A DNA stretch of 64,000 bases from an uncultured Candidatus Saccharibacteria bacterium (GCA_964450735.1 CAYVDC010000001.1:5577-69576), one strand, 5' to 3'; shown: positions 644-4,807, numbered from the stretch's first letter. Program-made: numbers and translations. The notes: generated by a model not told the origin, from the sequence alone.

Positions 644-1594
644 TTAAAAATCTTCTAAAAAAATGTTTTCATTTTCACTTGGAATTTCTATCCTTGTGTA
701 TTCCCCCACTCTATTTTCAAAGAAATTATTCTTTCTTTTTAATGCAATTCTATTCATGTAGTCTAATGGATTAGAAACATTGAATTTAGGAGGAACATTG
801 TAATTAATAAGAATACTATCTGTGATATATTGAACAAACTGTATCATATCTTCTTTAGTAAGTCCTTCCAAGCCATCAGGCATACTTTCTTCTACAAAAG
901 TTTTCTCCACTTCGTAACATCCCAACACTATCTCTTCTAATTCTTCATTTGAAAGTTTATATTCCTCTTGTAAATAATTATTATAAAGATGGAGTCCGAA
1001 TTCATAATGAAGATTTTCATCTCCCATAATTAATTCATTGGCTGTACAAAGTCCTAACATTTTATTTCTACTTCTAAAATAGAATATTCCTGCAAATGTT
1101 GAGGAAAAACTAAGACCTTCCACCAATGAAAATGCTACCAATCTATGTGCAAATGATTGGTGTCCTATCCATTTTAAAGCCCATTCTGCTTTCTTTTTCA
1201 CTGTTTCTATCTCAGAGATAGCATTAAACATCTTTAATTGTTCTCCCCTATCTTTTATATAGGTGTCAATTAAAATTGAATATTGATTACTATGTACTTG
1301 TTCAATAAATGTTTGATGACCATAGAAATATTGTGCTTCCAATATATCCACTTCATTTAGAAAATTAACAGCTAAATTTTCTAACACCAACCCATCACTT
1401 ATAGTGAAAAATGCCAACAAATTCTTCAAATATTCCTGCTCTAAAACAGGAAGTTCGTTGAATCTATCGGCACTTAAATCATTTTCTTCCACCACCCATG
1501 TTTGGGCTTCTGCTTTTTTATAAAAACTCCATAAATCCCCATGTGTAATTGGGAAAATACTCCATCTTTTTTCAATATCATTACTTTTGAGCAT
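644..1594 (-). CDS. nrdB: Ribonucleotide reductase class I small subunit (R2)
   Basis: 316-aa ORF. The WSIFPITHGDLWSFYKKAEAQTWVVEE N-terminus and iron-ligand/tyrosyl-radical-region motifs (EGL.FS.FA.IFYFRSR, GDENLHYEF) are typical of NrdB/NrdF. Confidence 0.85.
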   Translation of the reverse strand: MLKSNDIEKRWSIFPITHGDLWSFYKKAEAQTWVVEENDLSADRFNELPVLEQEYLKNLLAFFTISDGLVLENLAVNFLNEVDILEAQYFYGHQTFIEQVHSNQYSILIDTYIKDRGEQLKMFNAISEIETVKKKAEWALKWIGHQSFAHRLVAFSLVEGLSFSSTFAGIFYFRSRNKMLGLCTANELIMGDENLHYEFGLHLYNNYLQEEYKLSNEELEEIVLGCYEVEKTFVEESMPDGLEGLTKEDMIQFVQYITDSILINYNVPPKFNVSNPLDYMNRIALKRKNNFFENRVGEYTRIEIPSENENIFLEDF

Positions 1595-1871
1595 ATTCTC
1601 CTGTATAAAGTCTTATAAATTCTTCATGTGTTTTAATAATTCTCCATTCTTCTTCTAAACAATAGCTATTTTTTATTTGGACAAATAGTGAAGTGTCTTT
1701 TCTATTTAATAAAAATTTGTCACCAAATTTACTTTCAAATCTATGAATGTATTTTTTATCATCAAAATTGACAGATTTTCCAAGAAAAATAACTATCCAA
1801 AATATTATTTCCTTGAACATAGCTAAAAAACAAAGGAAATTGGAACATTCATATATCCTGATTTTTTCCAA
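1581..1871 (-). CDS. hypothetical protein (96 aa)
   Basis: ORF on the dominant coding strand. No recognisable motif. Overlaps the nrdB start by 14 nt. Confidence 0.3.
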   Translation of the reverse strand: MEKIRIYECSNFLCFLAMFKEIIFWIVIFLGKSVNFDDKKYIHRFESKFGDKFLLNRKDTSLFVQIKNSYCLEEEWRIIKTHEEFIRLYTGEYAQK

Positions 1872-2077
1872 TTTTTTCCATAATAAGCCTCCATTGCTGC
1901 TTTATAATGAGCAATAGCCACTCTTAATTCGTTTTTTTCTTCCTTTGATTTTTTATACACTTCAAACGAAAGATGATTGGCACGAGGATTTTGAACTTCT
2001 CGTTGAATTGTTTGTTGATTATACCAACGTCTGTTAGCATCTTCTCTATCTGTAACAGTCACTAATTCTAACACCAT
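1823..2077 (-). CDS. hypothetical protein (84 aa)
   Basis: ORF on the dominant strand. Overlaps the previous ORF by 49 nt, so one of the two starts is probably internal. Confidence 0.3.
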   Translation of the reverse strand: MVLELVTVTDREDANRRWYNQQTIQREVQNPRANHLSFEVYKKSKEEKNELRVAIAHYKAAMEAYYGKNWKKSGYMNVPISFVF

Positions 2078-2103
2078 AGTTAATTTTGTTTATTTGTTTT
2101 TTT

Positions 2104-2160
2104 GTGGTAGCCGACGGAATCGAACCGCCAATGTTTCTAATGTAACTGATTTACAGTCAG
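2104..2160 (-). tRNA. tRNA 3'-half fragment (pseudo-tRNA). It has an anticodon arm with a GUA (Tyr-type) loop, a T-arm GGCGG-TTCGATT-CCGTC, and an acceptor 3' strand GGCTACC-A. No matching 5' acceptor strand or D-arm was found.
   Basis: The minus strand reads ...GCTGA CTGTAAA TCAGT ...GGCGGTTCGATTCCGTCGGCTACCA. This includes a canonical T-loop and a 7-nt anticodon loop with U33. The complementary 5' acceptor strand GGTAGCC is absent within 200 nt on either side. Confidence 0.4.
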
Positions 2161-2182
2161 CCTCCTTCACCGTTCAAAAAAT

Positions 2183-2596
2183 CTAAGAAAAATTATGTAT
2201 CTTAGTCTTTTCTTCTTGTTTCAACCAACCACTACTTTTTAGTACGTCGTTGCCGAGTCTGTCATCCATAGTTAGGTTGTCCACAAGCGTAAATTCGGAC
2301 AAACGTTGCCCTATGTTATCATTATATATTCTAATTCCCTCTCTTTCAATATTAATTGCTGCGTTTAAGTCACGGTCAATAACGTTTTCACATTCCTCAC
2401 AAATAAATTCTCTATCCTTTAATGTTAAATTGCCATTCTTCCATCCACATTGGCAACAAGTTTTTGACGATGGAAACCATCTGCCAACAAATATTAACTC
2501 TCTACCATACCACTTTGATTTATATTCCAATTGTCTCCTCATTTCATATAACCCAAGTTCCTGAATAGACTTAGCTAATTTATGGTTCTTCATCAT
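2183..2596 (-). pseudogene. tnpB: IS200/IS605-family TnpB (OrfB), C-terminal fragment carrying the zinc finger and RuvC-III region
   Basis: Contains ...WFPSSKTCCQCGWKNGNLTLKDREFICEECENVIDRDLNAAINI.... The CxxC...CxxC finger followed by the DRDxNAAxNI motif is the hallmark TnpB C-terminus. The N-terminal two thirds of the protein are missing from this ORF. Confidence 0.7.
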
Positions 2597-3444
2597 TCCA
2601 CTAACATATTTTTATCCCAATCATTTTTGAATTTGTTGTATTTGATATTTGTGATTGTTTCTAATTCATTTTTTAATATAATTTTAAGGTTATATCCAAT
2701 TTCAATAAACAATCCGCATTTTTTCTTGGATTTATCAGAAAACATTCCTTTTATTTCAACCCATTGATTATCTTTTATTAAATAGAAATCGGGGGTATAT
2801 CTTAATCCGTTTAATAATTTTATAGTCTTATATTCATATTCCCATTCAATTAAATTATTTGTTAAATATTGAGCATACATAACTTCAAAACCACTTCTCA
2901 TTTTAATAAAAACACCATTTTTGTAAACTCCCCATTTTCTAGTTGAACACATTTTAGTGCTGTTATTTAAACCTATTCGACTACCAGTGATACTAACCAT
3001 TTCTTTTTGATAACACCCACAACTTTTAACTTTACCAGATACTAAATCAGCGTAATAATTTCTTTTAATATTACCACAGTCACATTTTGTTATATAGTAA
3101 TAACCCCCATTCTTATCATTCTGTTCAATATTTACAATGGTCAATCTATTAAATTTCTCACCAATCTTTGAATTTGCTGTTTTTGTATGTTTTTTATTTA
3201 AATTTCCAATACCAACTGAACATCCACACCCAATAATTTTACCGCTAGTTAAAACACTACCTCTAATTATTTTCTCATTACCACAATCACATTTACATAA
3301 ATATTCTTTTCCGTGATTCCCTGTGTGATTTAATTTAACTACTGTCAATTTTCCAAATTTAATACCAGTCAAGTCTTTTCCTTTACTCCCGCCAATTTTA
3401 TTACTCATATTGTTATATATTTTATCTATATATAAATATAACAA
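2593..3444 (-). CDS. putative homing-type endonuclease with two N-terminal zinc-ribbon DNA-binding repeats and a C-terminal PD-(D/E)xK-like nuclease domain
   Basis: Two repeats of the form FGKLTVV...YLCKCDCGNEKII...SGKIIGCGC and FNRLTIV...ITKCDCGNIKR...SGKVKSCGC. C-terminal ...RYTPDFYL...QWVEIKG... resembles a PD-(D/E)xK motif. It sits exactly between the two TnpB fragments. Confidence 0.45.
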   Translation of the reverse strand: MLYLYIDKIYNNMSNKIGGSKGKDLTGIKFGKLTVVKLNHTGNHGKEYLCKCDCGNEKIIRGSVLTSGKIIGCGCSVGIGNLNKKHTKTANSKIGEKFNRLTIVNIEQNDKNGGYYYITKCDCGNIKRNYYADLVSGKVKSCGCYQKEMVSITGSRIGLNNSTKMCSTRKWGVYKNGVFIKMRSGFEVMYAQYLTNNLIEWEYEYKTIKLLNGLRYTPDFYLIKDNQWVEIKGMFSDKSKKKCGLFIEIGYNLKIILKNELETITNIKYNKFKNDWDKNMLVE

Positions 3445-3482
3445 TATTTAGTTTTTTCTAAAATAATAACTTGGTTTTTTAA

Positions 3483-3809
3483 TTATTTTTGTTCATTGTT
3501 TTTAGATTTAAACTTAGGAAACCCTTTATGCCGTTTAAAGAAGTTTTTATATGCTTGTTCTAAGTTAATAATAGATTGTTTCAAAACTTTAGTATTATGT
3601 TCTTTTAACCAAATGTATTCAGTTCTTAGATTACTATGAAAGAAATGACCTAAATCTGATAGCGATGTATTTTGTTTATTTGAATCATAACGTTGTTTTT
3701 TGTATGATAAACATTGATTAAAGACAAACCGATAAGACCCAAAAAGTGAGTTTATCTTATGTTTTTGCTTATCATTTAGATATAATCTTATCTTTATTGC
3801 TTTTAACAT
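3483..3809 (-). pseudogene. tnpB: IS200/IS605-family TnpB (OrfB), N-terminal fragment
   Basis: MLKAIKIRLYLNDKQKHKINSLFGSYRFVFNQCL...EYIWLKEHNTKVLKQSIINLEQAYKNFFKRHKGFPKFKSKNNEQK matches the conserved TnpB N-terminus (KxxKxRxYPxxxQ...FG..RFVxN...AxKNFF...GxPKFKSK). The ORF terminates after roughly 108 aa. Confidence 0.7.
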
Positions 3810-4057
3810 TATTTCTTAACTTATTTTTCTTTTTTTTCTACGTTCAACACTACGCTTATCATAGAGATAACCATAAATACTATCAATTATTAACACCAAA
3901 TCAGTTACCAAATCTTCTTGTTCACTTACATTATTTTTCTCAATATATATCATCTCAACCCCATATATATTAAACAAATTATATTGAAACTTTGTTAATC
4001 TATTTTTATCCTAATCTTACATCTTTCATATTTGTTTATTTATATTTTGAGCAATAA

Positions 4058-4131
4058 GTGGGACTCAAACTCATAGCCCCCGACTTGGAAGGACGGTGCG
4101 CTAACCAATTGCGCCATTATTGCTTATGTTC
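4058..4131 (-). tRNA. tRNA-Gly (anticodon UCC)-like, 74 nt, with a non-canonical T-arm
   Basis: Minus strand reads GCAATAA TG GCGC AATTGGTTA GCGC A CCGTC CTTCCAA GTCGG ... TTATTGC T. The 7-bp acceptor stem is perfect and the D-arm is textbook. The CUUCCAA anticodon loop is the same as T4 tRNA-Gly. The anticodon stem has one U-U mismatch. The 17 nt where the T-arm should be (ATGAG TTTGAGT CCCAC) do not pair canonically. Confidence 0.5.
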
Positions 4132-4361
4132 AAATTTTCTTTCTTCCAAATTTCTTTCATTTCTTCAAATGTTTTGTATTTATTTCGTTTTCTAAATGAA
4201 GAAGATTCAATAAAATCTGAATGATATTTCTCTAACAAATATAACACTTTTTTTTCAATTAATGAATAAACTTCATCTTTAAATTTAGTTGAAAATGTGG
4301 CATTTGGATAAGAGCCTATCATTTTCATCACATCTCTAACACCAAACTCATATCCGTCCAT
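4101..4361 (-). CDS. hypothetical protein (86 aa)
   Basis: ORF on the dominant strand. Its 3' end overlaps the tRNA-Gly-like gene by about 30 nt, so the true stop or gene status is uncertain. Confidence 0.35.
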   Translation of the reverse strand: MDGYEFGVRDVMKMIGSYPNATFSTKFKDEVYSLIEKKVLYLLEKYHSDFIESSSFRKRNKYKTFEEMKEIWKKENLNISNNGAIG

Positions 4362-4362
4362 A

Positions 4363-4569
4363 TTATTTTTTTAATTTTTCCACTTTAAAAAGAAGAGCGT
4401 TTAAACAAGCAACGTCCATTTCTATAAATTGCCCATATTCTTCACAATAACTTTCCATATCTTTGTCTAATTGATATAATTCCTTTTCGATTAATTCGAT
4501 AACATCTAAAATAGCTTCATTATATATTTCAGATTCTCTTACAAAAGGAAACTCTAATTGAACACCCAT
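4363..4569 (-). CDS. hypothetical protein (68 aa)
   Basis: Small ORF tightly packed with its neighbours on the minus strand. Confidence 0.3.
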   Translation of the reverse strand: MGVQLEFPFVRESEIYNEAILDVIELIEKELYQLDKDMESYCEEYGQFIEMDVACLNALLFKVEKLKK

Positions 4570-4573
4570 GTTG

Positions 4574-4807
4574 TTATAAATATTTTTTTAAAATGTTTAT
4601 CTTACGTCTTTTTAATGTGAATGAAGATTCATCATTTATCAAGTCATCTAATTCTTCTTCTGTACATTTCTCACAGAGCAGGTCTAATTCTTCATCGTTT
4701 ATTCGATAGGTTAATTTCATAGAATTATCTATCAAATGAAGAAATCCTCCCTTACTAACAAGTTTTAGGAATTCCTCTCCAAAATTTCTTCTCTCTATTC
4801 TGCTCAT
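4574..4807 (-). CDS. hypothetical protein (77 aa)
   Basis: Small ORF. Its start overlaps the next gene's stop by 4 nt, suggesting translational coupling. Confidence 0.3.
   Translation of the reverse strand: MSRIERRNFGEEFLKLVSKGGFLHLIDNSMKLTYRINDEELDLLCEKCTEEELDDLINDESSFTLKRRKINILKKYL

What the first reader, a model, noticed from the sequence alone, without database searches (positions are those of the whole stretch)
2104..4131. tRNA locus colonised by mobile DNA: split IS605-type TnpB, an inserted endonuclease with tandem zinc ribbons and a PD-(D/E)xK domain, a tRNA 3' fragment and an aberrant tRNA-Gly
The N-terminal 108 aa (3483-3809) and C-terminal 137 aa (2183-2596) of a TnpB are co-oriented. 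They are separated by an 852-bp ORF encoding a different nuclease architecture. That ORF exactly replaces the RuvC-I/II core, so tnpB is a pseudogene captured by a second selfish element. TnpB in a T4-like phage is itself notable. Directly downstream lies the 3' half of a tRNA (Tyr GUA-type anticodon arm plus T-arm plus acceptor 3' strand) with no 5' half. Upstream is a tRNA-Gly(UCC)-like gene that has perfect acceptor, D and anticodon arms but an unpaired T-arm region. This mirrors the T4 tRNA cluster, which hosts the segB homing endonuclease. It also suggests that IS insertion and deletion truncated an ancestral tRNA-Tyr.
Basis: seen in the sequence. Interest (0 to 1): 0.55.

Follow-up and report, generated by a model that had tools for sequence, protein, structure and literature searches.

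The report
Homing endonuclease inside a dead transposon
A decayed IS607 jumping gene sits in a phage tRNA-Tyr gene, and its tnpB gene was invaded by a nuclease gene from a widespread, apparently undescribed family that always inserts at one exact spot in tnpB.

Summary
The sequence features are real, but several labels need correcting. The element is IS607-type (serine-recombinase TnpA tail at 3825-4007), not IS605-type. Its right end (…ACGG, 2170) abuts a 65-nt tRNA-Tyr 3' remnant (2105-2169), at the position of the D-loop GG of intact homologues. The 271-aa ORF (2593-3408) has two zinc-ribbon modules and a T7-endonuclease-I-type nuclease domain.

This ORF does not simply replace the TnpB core. 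About nine tnpB codons (~270-278) survive just upstream of it (3456-3482). It therefore lies at a fixed site, directly after the RuvC-II Glu-Asp codons. A separate deletion removed codons 109-~265.

In 22 of 27 loci carrying homologues, the nuclease gene sits at this same tnpB site:
- four are clean insertions;
- one is in the opposite orientation;
- the flanking tnpB pieces are up to 100% identical to uninterrupted tnpB genes;
- nearly identical nuclease genes sit beside tnpB pieces only 75% identical, with conversion-like tracts.

This is the footprint of a free-standing homing endonuclease specialised on tnpB. Cleavage itself is inferred, not shown. I found no report of it. The window copy is a fossil of the transposon carrying an intact invader.

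The parts
4050..4123 (-). tRNA-Gly(UCC). Complete, but the T stem has two A.C mismatches and the anticodon stem has one U.U pair.
   Evidence: ARAGORN; Rfam tRNA 51.6 bits against a gathering score of 29. The relative's homologue in L368 has a perfect T stem, GTGGG/CCCAC. In sister genomes L371/L373 this gene is cut after GTCGGGGG by a second IS607.
4008..4049 (-). Spacer holding the left deletion boundary. The transposon's left end, about 140 TnpA codons and the first ~19 nt of tRNA-Tyr are missing here.
   Evidence: The translation shows stops before the DKNRLTKFQYN homology begins. tblastn with intact TnpA starts at residue 141.
3816..4007 (-). C-terminal remnant (~65 codons plus stop) of an IS607 serine-recombinase transposase, TnpA.
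   Evidence: NF033518 transpos_IS607 positions 142-186 of 187, E=1.7e-6; phrog_6620 transposase. 57% identity to residues 141-205 of the intact 216-aa TnpA of L162. That TnpA has MerR/HTH_17 plus Resolvase domains.
3483..3809 (-). tnpB N-terminal fragment, codons 1-108 plus a stop.
   Evidence: HTH_OrfB_IS605 E=2e-15. 77% aa identity to residues 1-108 of intact 420-aa TnpB genes.
3456..3482 (-). Surviving tnpB codons ~270-278 (LKNQVIILE). This is the left side of the nuclease gene's insertion site and ends at the RuvC-II Glu codon.
   Evidence: Reading of the junction. 19 of 21 nt are identical to the corresponding stretch of L324, where the N part is continuous.
3409..3455 (-). 5' leader of the nuclease cassette, with the conserved motif TATATTTATA.
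   Evidence: Related motifs (ATTTTCTA..TATATTTAT) precede the start codon in L324, L334, L332 and L355.
2593..3408 (-). Putative free-standing homing endonuclease gene, 271 aa: two zinc-ribbon modules plus a T7-endonuclease-I-type PD-(D/E)xK domain. The ORF is intact.
   Evidence: Identical to P0001. Invariant Cys clusters and E175, D207 and K220 in 32 homologues, with E or D at 218. A family profile matches T7 endonuclease I (PDB 1M0D) at E=1.2e-7, with the catalytic residues aligned. AF2 mean pLDDT is 84.8, and the top Foldseek hit is T7 endo I. dN/dS within the family is 0.11-0.56.
2183..2605 (-). tnpB C-terminal fragment, codons 281-420 (zinc finger plus RuvC-III). It can be read from ATG 2596, which overlaps the nuclease gene's stop codon. 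Its 3' part carries the conserved guide-RNA scaffold region.
   Evidence: Cas12f1-like_TNB E=2.5e-23. 88.6% aa and 89.6% nt identity to intact L162 tnpB. The 3'-terminal stretch is conserved across six elements and Lak phage.
2170..2182 (-). Right end of the IS607 element, ...TTTTTTGAACGG.
   Evidence: Six related elements share ...TTG(A)ACGG(T) and diverge immediately afterwards. IS607 elements end in GG/CGG (PMC13565253).
2105..2169 (-). tRNA-Tyr(GUA) 3' remnant, from about position 20 to the discriminator base. It occupies the place where the TnpB guide would be transcribed.
   Evidence: Rfam tRNA partial hit of 21.9 bits. It aligns with intact tRNA-Tyr of L368 and L339 from TGAAGG onwards. 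The D-loop GG of the intact genes coincides with the terminal GG of the right end.

Best explanation
The locus records three layers of selfish DNA.

1. An IS607-family transposon (serine-recombinase tnpA plus the RNA-guided nuclease gene tnpB) integrated at the GG of the D loop of a phage tRNA-Tyr gene. The last 65 nt of the tRNA now abut its right end.

2. The tnpB gene was invaded by a free-standing homing endonuclease gene. The encoded protein has tandem zinc-ribbon DNA-binding modules and a T7-endonuclease-I-type PD-(D/E)xK domain. The gene landed at the site this family always uses: between the RuvC-II ...L-E-D(-L) codons and the N-V-x-G-M-M-K-N codons.

3. The disabled transposon then decayed. 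The left end, about 140 TnpA codons and the tRNA 5' part were deleted. tnpB codons 109-~265 were also deleted.

Inferred mechanism of the invader: the zinc-ribbon modules (plus an extra HTH in some members) read the highly conserved tnpB DNA around the RuvC-II motif. The nuclease domain cuts uninterrupted tnpB copies. Repair from a copy carrying the gene pastes the gene in, together with about 100 bp of each flank. Insertion splits the target, so the carrier is immune. Because tnpB is multicopy and itself mobile, the invader gets many targets and a free ride.

What is shown: the anatomy, the fixed site, presence/absence among near-identical tnpB alleles, both orientations, discordant histories with conversion-like tracts, and conserved catalytic residues. 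What is inferred: DNA cleavage, its specificity, and homing by repair.
For: IS607 identity and ends:
-, plus PMC13565253.
- tRNA-Tyr homology, and the D-loop GG coinciding with the right-end GG.

Fixed site:
- tblastn with an intact 420-aa TnpB places the downstream fragment at residues 279-288 in the window, L081, L324, L325, L330, L332 and L334.
- The same holds in 15 further distinct metagenome loci. In all, 22 of 27 distinct loci show this junction.
- Clean insertions with both halves present: L324, where 830 nt are inserted and 9 nt or fewer replaced relative to intact L164; L334, L347 and L348.
- Same site in the opposite orientation: L355.
- The window keeps codons ~270-278 upstream of the gene.

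Independent invasions:
- The flanking tnpB pieces are 100%, 99%, 95%, 93% and 91% identical to uninterrupted tnpB genes. The pairs are L325/L239, L352/L318, L359/L313, window/L162 and L324/L164.

Mobility:
- The L352 and L356 nuclease genes are 99% identical (dS 0.02). Their tnpB pieces are only 75% identical (dS 0.75).
- Identity is ~100% across the gene, ~140 nt upstream and ~100 nt downstream, then falls to ~60%.

Other support:
- The target DNA is strongly conserved in 169 intact tnpB genes.
- Nuclease domain and catalytic residues.
- More distant relatives behave like ordinary phage homing genes. One splits a probable terminase gene, though the upstream ORF's terminase hits are below Pfam's cut-off.
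- The zinc-ribbon module is shared with a PHROG family annotated as phage HNH endonuclease, and partial homologues carry HNH or AP2 Pfam domains.
- No group I intron or any other Rfam family occurs in 1500-4800.
Against: - No biochemical evidence of cleavage or specificity exists for any member.
- T7 endonuclease I itself is a structure-specific junction resolvase, not a sequence-specific enzyme.
- The window protein alone scores below Pfam's cut-off for Phage_endo_I: 24.2 against 29.1 bits.
- In every locus examined the tnpB C-terminal fragment ORF is intact through RuvC-III. This could mean selection for a function rather than mere recency.
- Upstream tnpB parts are lost with similar breakpoints (~codon 105-108) in the window, L330 and L364. 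I have no explanation for this.
- The window's N fragment is 75-79% nt identical to the L162 clade and its C fragment 87-90%. This could reflect recombination or unequal decay, and I cannot tell which.
- The order of events in the window is inferred only.
- The literature search covers only open-access papers and preprints.
Confidence: 0.78

Rival explanations
1. One-off capture: an unrelated phage nuclease gene landed by illegitimate recombination in an already dead tnpB and happened to replace its catalytic core. There is no site specificity.
For: In the window the RuvC-I/II core is indeed missing, and the foreign ORF lies between the two tnpB fragments.
Against: The same junction, to within a codon or two, recurs in 22 of 27 loci. 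These loci carry tnpB genes as little as 32% identical to each other. They are partnered with serine recombinases or with Y1 transposases, and the gene occurs in both orientations. The window still holds tnpB codons ~270-278 next to the gene.
Confidence: 0.04
2. Functional module rather than parasite: the nuclease and the always-intact TnpB C-terminal mini-protein (zinc finger plus RuvC-III) work together, perhaps with the guide-RNA region. Alternatively, in clean insertions, the two TnpB pieces reassemble into an active RNA-guided nuclease (a gene in pieces).
For: The C fragment ORF is intact in all 26 C fragments examined, some from duplicate contigs, and keeps its Cys and DRD motifs. Its start codons (the conserved Met-Met) overlap or closely follow the nuclease gene's stop codon, which allows coupled translation. 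dN/dS of the C fragments is 0.06-0.49.
Against: - The opposite-orientation case, L355, rules out an obligatory operon.
- The C fragments diverged long before the nearly identical nuclease genes arrived (dS 0.5-0.75 against 0.01-0.02). Their low dN/dS therefore mostly reflects their earlier life inside intact tnpB.
- The N part, with RuvC-I and RuvC-II, is absent in most loci, including the window. No RuvC active site can form there.
Confidence: 0.12
3. The nuclease gene is carried by a self-splicing intron or an intein, so that TnpB is still made intact.
For: Many homing endonuclease genes live in group I introns or inteins. IS607 and IS605 elements are known to associate with group I introns as IStrons (PMC13565253).
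Against: - No Rfam intron family matches 1500-4800, even at E up to 1.
- Only 0-110 nt flank the ORF inside the insertion.
- The reading frames differ and stop codons intervene.
- In the window about 157 tnpB codons are missing in any case.
Confidence: 0.03
4. Assembly or sequencing artefact: a chimeric contig or frameshift errors produce an apparent split gene.
For: The source is a metagenome-type assembly.
Against: An independent assembly from another sample is 100% identical over 6,077 nt. Further short contigs from other samples carry the same junctions. The inserted ORF is a well-populated protein family.
Confidence: 0.01

Closest known systems
Free-standing homing endonuclease genes of T4-like phages (seg and mob genes; 'intronless homing'), including the mobE insertion that splits nrdA in phage Aeh1. 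The Aeh1 case is cited from my own knowledge; the general concept is in PMC13565253.
   Same: - A nuclease gene with no intron or intein sits at a fixed position in or beside a conserved gene.
- It is present or absent among close relatives.
- Flanking DNA is co-converted.
- A host gene is split into two ORFs.
   Different: - The target is not a host or phage housekeeping gene but another selfish gene, tnpB.
- The catalytic domain is T7-endonuclease-I-type PD-(D/E)xK, not GIY-YIG or HNH.
- The targets are multicopy and themselves mobile.
T7 endonuclease I (gene 3 product; PDB 1M0D, 2PFJ; Pfam PF05367)
   Same: The catalytic core aligns (RSGxE ... YTPDF ... E/D-x-K-G), with all four catalytic residues conserved. 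The profile E-value is 1.2e-7 and it is the top Foldseek hit.
   Different: T7 endo I is a small, structure-specific Holliday-junction resolvase with no zinc-ribbon modules. Here the domain is fused to two or three zinc ribbons, sometimes with an HTH. It also sits at a sequence-defined site. Whether it forms the domain-swapped dimer is unknown.
PD-(D/E)xK homing endonucleases I-Ssp6803I and I-Bth0305I (I-Bth0305I: PMC3239194, listed; not read in detail)
   Same: A restriction-enzyme-like fold recruited for homing.
   Different: Both are intron-encoded and have other targets (tRNA-fMet and recA). I-Bth0305I is Vsr-like. No sequence similarity to either was detected here.
IS607-family insertion sequences with TnpB and its guide RNA (PMC13565253)
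   Same: - A serine-recombinase TnpA tail followed by tnpB.
- A right end ending in CGG.
- Integration downstream of GG.
- An intact relative (L162) with a 216-aa TnpA and a 420-aa TnpB.
   Different: The window copy lacks its left end, most of TnpA and the TnpB catalytic core. No Rfam guide-RNA family (e.g. RAGATH-18) was matched.
IStrons (a group I intron fused to IS605 or IS607)
   Same: Nested selfish elements that involve tnpB-carrying transposons.
   Different: In IStrons the partners cooperate, and disruption of TnpB alone has not been observed (PMC13565253). Here a protein-only nuclease gene disrupts tnpB itself.

Membership tests
IS607 family insertion sequence | Serine-recombinase transposase (MerR-type HTH plus resolvase domain) upstream of tnpB | tested here: inconclusive
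   Only the last ~65 residues survive. They match NF033518 positions 142-186 of 187 (E=1.7e-6, far below the full-length cut-off) and are 57% identical to TnpA of the intact relative L162. That TnpA has MerR/HTH_17 plus Resolvase domains. The catalytic part is deleted.
IS607 family insertion sequence | Ends terminate in GG/CGG, integration is downstream of a GG, and there are no end hairpins | tested here: met
   The right end...GAACGG, is shared by six elements, after which the flanks diverge. The GG coincides with the D-loop GG of intact tRNA-Tyr. The left end is deleted, so only one end could be tested. The rule is taken from PMC13565253.
IS607 family insertion sequence | TnpB with an intact RuvC triad and its guide RNA | tested here: not met
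   Codons 109-~265 are deleted, the gene is split, and RuvC-I is gone. The 3' scaffold region is conserved at DNA level, but no Rfam family matched. The locus is a remnant, not a working member.
   There is no Y1_Tnp match in the locus. The upstream remnant is from a serine recombinase. Some relatives of the nuclease gene do sit in Y1-type elements, namely L081 and L325.
Free-standing homing endonuclease gene | A fixed insertion site in a conserved target gene | tested here: met
   22 of 27 loci have the junction between the LED(L) and NVxGMM codons of tnpB. The target DNA is highly conserved in 169 intact genes.
Free-standing homing endonuclease gene | Presence/absence among closely related target alleles, and a history independent of the flanks | tested here: met
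   The flanks are 91-100% identical to uninterrupted tnpB genes. Nuclease genes 99% identical sit beside flanks only 75% identical, with conversion-like tracts. One case is in the opposite orientation.
Free-standing homing endonuclease gene | The encoded enzyme cleaves the allele that lacks the gene, at or near the insertion site | not testable with these tools
   This needs an in vitro cleavage assay or an in vivo homing assay.
T7 endonuclease I-like nucleases (PF05367) | Sequence match and the catalytic E...D...E-x-K residues | tested here: met
   The family profile matches 1M0D at E=1.2e-7, with RSGxE, YTPDF and ExKG aligned. E175, D207 and K220 are invariant, with E or D at 218. The window protein alone is below the Pfam cut-off at 24.2 against 29.1 bits. 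A relative passes at 32.2 bits.
T7 endonuclease I-like nucleases (PF05367) | Domain-swapped dimer that resolves four-way junctions | not testable with these tools
   Only a monomer model was made.
tRNA-Tyr gene | A complete cloverleaf with a GUA anticodon | tested here: not met
   Only about positions 20-76 are present. ARAGORN makes no call, and Rfam gives a partial hit of 21.9 bits, below the cut-off of 29. Homology to intact tRNA-Tyr genes shows it is a truncated gene.
tRNA-Gly gene | A cloverleaf detected by two methods | tested here: met
   ARAGORN calls it and Rfam gives 51.6 bits. The T stem is weakened by two G-to-A changes relative to L368. Whether it functions is unknown.

The most novel reading that the evidence does not exclude
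The insertion site may be chosen so that tnpB survives as a gene in pieces. In clean insertions, the N piece (residues 1-279: WED, REC, RuvC-I/II) and the C piece (280-end: zinc finger, RuvC-III) would reassemble into an active RNA-guided nuclease. The C piece would be translated from the conserved Met-Met codons, coupled to the nuclease gene's stop codon. A protein-guided and an RNA-guided homing nuclease would then coexist in one transposon. The site would also be a natural split point for engineering two-part TnpB.
Probability: 0.15. Interest if true: 0.8.

Novelty: new variant of a known kind. Interest (0 to 1): 0.62.

Why it matters
TnpB is the ancestor of Cas12. It is now understood as an RNA-guided homing nuclease that keeps its transposon in place. 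This locus, and the family behind it, show that tnpB is itself the specific prey of a protein-guided homing nuclease, which is a parasite of a parasite.

If confirmed, this would do four things:
- It would add an unrecognised force that inactivates and reshuffles tnpB genes in phages and bacteria.
- It would explain a class of orphan 'TNB-only' ORFs and 'hypothetical' neighbours in annotations.
- It would supply a new modular nuclease architecture (zinc-ribbon repeats plus a T7-endo-I core) with a long, conserved and predictable target.
- It would point to a naturally tolerated split site in TnpB.

For the window itself the message is modest. The transposon is dead, and only the invading gene and one flawed tRNA gene look intact.

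Tried and rejected
- **Close phage relatives.** I searched INPHARED and IMG/VR, using NrdB. Nothing was closer than 66% aa, and there were no tRNAs near nrdB in 50 loci, so this gave no comparison.
- **Exact-match searches.** The tRNA 3' end as a DNA pattern and the 137-aa ORF as an exact protein found nothing. A looser tRNA pattern and a search with the 84-aa neighbour did work.
- **53-aa ORF.** tblastn against phages found nothing. Profile searches were needed.
- **tRNA fragment folding.** Folding it alone gave no signal (z=0.16). That is expected for a truncated tRNA and says nothing either way.
- **D-loop reading.** I considered that the tRNA homology extends into a D loop, as in Rfam's alignment. 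I rejected this because GAACGG is the conserved transposon end.
- **Intron or intein carriage.** Rejected (and the junction reading).
- **Defence-system role for the nuclease.** Rejected: PADLOC gave only a marginal 14-bit hit.
- **Alternative genetic code.** The Lak phage tnpB looks split under table 11. I attribute that to TAG recoding in Lak phages, from my own knowledge and not tested here. The window has ORFs of more than 1,500 aa under table 11, so recoding does not apply.
- **IS607 guide-RNA family.** Rfam gave no match to RAGATH-18 or any other guide-RNA family.
- **Literature.** Four full-text searches found no description of a protein homing endonuclease inside tnpB (a fifth query was rejected for its syntax). 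A 2026 review of the field does not mention one.
Full report
**Context.** The window comes from a large, low-GC tailed phage. It encodes a terminase, a portal protein, baseplate wedge proteins, ribonucleotide reductase and thymidylate synthase. The source contig is about 185 kb. All features of the finding lie on the minus strand, between an 86-aa ORF (4101-4361) and an 84-aa ORF (1823-2077).

**Checking the observation.** ORF listing and profile searches confirm three ORFs:
- A 108-aa TnpB N-terminus at 3483-3809. It matches HTH_OrfB_IS605 at E=2e-15 and phrog_506 positions 6-111 of 403.
- A 137-aa TnpB C-terminus at 2183-2596. It matches Cas12f1-like_TNB at E=2.5e-23 and phrog_506 positions 279-372.
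- A foreign ORF in between.

ARAGORN and Rfam find one tRNA in the whole window, tRNA-Gly(UCC) at 4050-4123, scoring 51.6 bits. Rfam also gives a sub-threshold partial tRNA hit at 2113-2178 with anticodon GUA. Independent assemblies from other samples contain the same arrangement at 100% identity. It is therefore not an assembly artefact.

**The transposon is IS607-type.** The 53-aa ORF at 3816-3977 matches the last 45 positions of NCBIfam's IS607 transposase model (E=1.7e-6). A viral contig, L162, carries an intact relative. Its 216-aa TnpA has MerR/HTH_17 and Resolvase domains, and a 420-aa TnpB follows directly. The window aligns to residues 141-205 of that TnpA, and to residues 1-108 and 281-420 of that TnpB. 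Relatives L163, L242 and L164 also have uninterrupted tnpB genes.

Six related elements share the terminal sequence ...TTG(A)ACGG(T) and diverge immediately after it. That places the right end at window 2170. IS607 elements end in GG/CGG and integrate downstream of GG (PMC13565253).

**The tRNA-Tyr remnant.** The 65 nt after the right end (2169 down to 2105) align with intact phage tRNA-Tyr genes. The match includes an unusual variable region, ACATTAGAAACA (L339). The tRNA-Tyr of the related phage L368 also aligns. In those genes the D-loop GG falls exactly where the transposon's terminal GG sits. The element therefore integrated at G18-G19, and the remnant starts at about position 20. The GAACGG that Rfam read as a D loop is transposon sequence.

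The tRNA's first ~19 nt, the transposon's left end and about 140 TnpA codons are gone. The boundary lies in the 42 nt between the TnpA remnant and tRNA-Gly. The remnant occupies the position from which a TnpB guide would be transcribed. With TnpB dead, this has no consequence.

**tRNA-Gly.** Its T stem is ATGAG/CCCAC, with two A.C mismatches. The homologue in L368 has GTGGG/CCCAC, so the window gene carries two G-to-A changes. The unusual T loop and a U.U pair in the anticodon stem are shared with the homologue. The gene passes both detectors, and its function is untested. In sister genomes it is destroyed (see below), which suggests it is dispensable.

**The inserted gene.** The gene starts at ATG 3408 and encodes 271 aa, identical to database protein P0001. 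An alignment of 32 full-length homologues shows two invariant CxCxC...CGC zinc-ribbon modules. It also shows an invariant nuclease signature: RSGxE, YTPDF and a K-G pair, with Glu or Asp two residues before the Lys.

A profile of this alignment matches T7 endonuclease I structures at E=1.2e-7, with the catalytic Glu, Asp, Glu and Lys aligned. The AlphaFold model has mean pLDDT 84.8, and its best Foldseek hit is T7 endo I, followed by other PD-(D/E)xK nucleases. The zinc-ribbon part matches a PHROG family annotated as phage HNH endonuclease, and some partial homologues carry HNH or AP2 Pfam domains. The architecture is thus the modular kind typical of homing endonucleases. Sources label these proteins 'hypothetical' or give them no name.

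**The key result: a fixed site in tnpB.** I fetched the genomic context of homologues by exact-protein lookups and by a metagenome scan. I then located tnpB pieces with tblastn. In 22 of 27 distinct loci, a tnpB fragment starting at residue 279-288 (L162 numbering) lies directly beside the nuclease gene.

The partner elements are diverse. Some have IS607 serine recombinases (L332). Some have Y1 transposases on the opposite strand (L081, L325, L352 and others). One is in a Clostridium botulinum contig (L330).

- Four loci are clean insertions with the upstream tnpB part ending at residue 278-282: L324, L334, L347 and L348.
- Against intact L164, L324 has 830 nt inserted and at most 9 nt replaced.
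- At nucleotide level, the cassette lies between ...TTG GAA GAT (TTG) and AAT GTN ANN GGN ATG ATG AAR AAY. This is immediately after the RuvC-II catalytic Glu codon.
- In L355 the cassette occupies the same site in the opposite orientation.

**What this means for the window.** Directly upstream of the cassette leader, the window retains TTA AAA AAC CAA GTT ATT ATT TTA GAA (3456-3482). These are tnpB codons ~270-278, and 19 of 21 nt are identical to L324. The gene is therefore at the canonical site. The missing core, codons 109-~265, is a separate internal deletion that also left a stop codon after codon 108.

**Evidence that the gene moves.**
- The tnpB pieces next to the nuclease genes are scattered among uninterrupted tnpB lineages. 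Their best uninterrupted relatives are 100% (L325/L239), 99% (L352/L318), 95% (L359/L313), 93% (window/L162) and 91% (L324/L164) identical over ~95 residues.
- The L352 and L356 nuclease genes are 99% identical (dS 0.02), while their adjacent tnpB pieces are 75% identical (dS 0.75).
- A sliding comparison shows ~100% identity across the gene, ~140 nt upstream and ~100 nt downstream, then ~60%. That is the pattern left by homing with co-conversion.
- The nuclease genes are under purifying selection, with dN/dS 0.11-0.56.
- The uninterrupted target sequence is highly conserved at DNA level in 169 tnpB genes, as expected for a homing target.
- More distant relatives behave like ordinary phage homing genes. 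One splits a probable terminase gene (its terminase hits are below Pfam's cut-off), others are free-standing, and one is fused to the first 23 residues of a TnpB.

**Most likely history of the window locus.**
1. IS607 integrated into tRNA-Tyr.
2. The nuclease gene invaded tnpB at its standard site.
3. The disabled transposon decayed.

The order of these events is inferred. The window's C fragment is 87-90% nt identical to the L162 clade, its N fragment only 75-79%, and its TnpA tail 56-63% aa. Within that clade the N and C parts are about equally conserved. This asymmetry fits either recombination accompanying homing or faster decay of the dead left part. I cannot decide between them.

**Population and relatives.** Two other assemblies of the same phage, L371 and L373, have flanks 97-100% identical to the window. 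They carry a different, intact IS607 in place of window 2311-4075, with a 206-aa TnpA and a 406-aa TnpB. Its left end follows GTCGGGGG in the tRNA-Gly variable loop. Its right end...GATAACGG, joins ATAGGG|CAACG in the old tnpB tail. Because the old tail and the tRNA-Tyr remnant persist there at 100% identity, the window form is the older one. A second IS607 insertion with an adjacent deletion removed the nuclease gene.

More distant relatives, L367 and L368, lack the whole 2-kb segment. The homologues of the 86-aa and 84-aa ORFs are adjacent there. L368 keeps intact tRNA-Tyr, tRNA-Gly and tRNA-Met genes elsewhere. How the tRNA genes reached this position in the window's phage is unresolved.

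**Open points.**
- Cleavage and specificity are not demonstrated.
- The tnpB C fragment ORF is intact in every locus. The discordant dS values suggest recent invasions as the simple explanation. A role for the fragment, or reassembly of a two-piece TnpB in clean insertions, is not excluded.
- Upstream deletions with similar breakpoints (codon ~105-108) in the window, L330 and L364 are unexplained.

**Novelty.** Full-text searches and a 2026 review of TnpB as a homing nuclease gave no report of a protein homing endonuclease targeting tnpB. I rate the family as a new variant of a known kind: free-standing homing endonuclease genes. The window locus itself is a decayed example.

Noticed in passing
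L371 1640-3800 and L373 (same phage, other samples); corresponds to window 2311-4075: A second, different and intact IS607 (TnpA 206 aa, TnpB 406 aa) replaces the whole tRNA-Gly 3' part, old transposon remnant and nuclease gene. Its left end follows GTCGGGGG of tRNA-Gly. Its right end, ...GATAACGG, joins AGGG|CAACG inside the old tnpB tail. Both junctions are at G runs, so this phage locus is a repeated IS607 target.
   Followed up: partly
L367 5756-6242; L368 2461-2947 and 7953-8540: Related phages (74-82% nt) have the 86-aa and 84-aa ORF homologues directly adjacent, with no tRNA or transposon between them. L368 carries intact tRNA-Tyr, tRNA-Gly and tRNA-Met about 5 kb away on the other strand, in the order Tyr-Gly. 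The window has Gly-[IS]-Tyr. How the tRNA genes moved is unexplained.
   Followed up: partly
L368 8180-8455 (minus strand): A ~280-nt G+C-rich stretch that looks structured lies between tRNA-Tyr and tRNA-Gly in an otherwise AT-rich phage. It could be a non-coding RNA.
   Followed up: no
L242 1840-4150: An IS607 relative carries about 2.3 kb of extra DNA, with a 517-aa and a 200-aa ORF, between its tnpA and its intact tnpB. This may be passenger genes inside the transposon.
   Followed up: no
L366 1059-3942: A one-zinc-ribbon relative of the nuclease (33% identity; passes the Pfam Phage_endo_I cut-off) sits between two ORFs that look like the two halves of a terminase large subunit. The upstream ORF's terminase hits are below Pfam's cut-off, and the downstream ORF has no Pfam hit.
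   Followed up: partly
window 3483-3500; L330 1-80; L364 1824-2144: Three loci with unrelated tnpB lineages keep only about the first 105-108 codons of tnpB upstream of the nuclease gene. The breakpoint lies near the FPKFK motif each time. The recurrence is unexplained.
   Followed up: no
window 3409-3455; L324 437-472; L334 790-815; L332 2965-3000; L355 720-770: A conserved AT-rich motif (ATTTTCTA..TATATTTAT) lies 5-30 nt before the nuclease start codon, in cassettes whose proteins are only ~50% identical. It may be a promoter or a regulatory site.
   Followed up: no
L334 1866-1937; L348 1005-1090: A conserved ~100-nt segment with a small hairpin (ATCATTT..AAATGAT) lies between the nuclease stop codon and the tnpB C fragment in one subgroup. 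It is absent from the window.
   Followed up: no
L161 2963-4225 (Prevotella phage Lak-A1): The Lak megaphage tnpB (65% nt identity to the window fragments) reads as two ORFs under table 11. From my own knowledge, Lak phages recode TAG, so this is probably not a true split. A suppressor-type tRNA (anticodon UUA) lies nearby.
   Followed up: no
L081 3-101: A stretch 97% identical at protein level to the last 33 residues of the L162-type TnpB lies at the start of a contig. The same contig carries a Y1-type element with the nuclease gene about 4 kb away. It looks like a second transposon remnant.
   Followed up: no
window 3578-3608 (+): A weak Rfam hit to CRISPR-DR65 (28.3 bits against a gathering score of 43, E=0.073) lies inside the tnpB N fragment. 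It is most likely chance.
   Followed up: no
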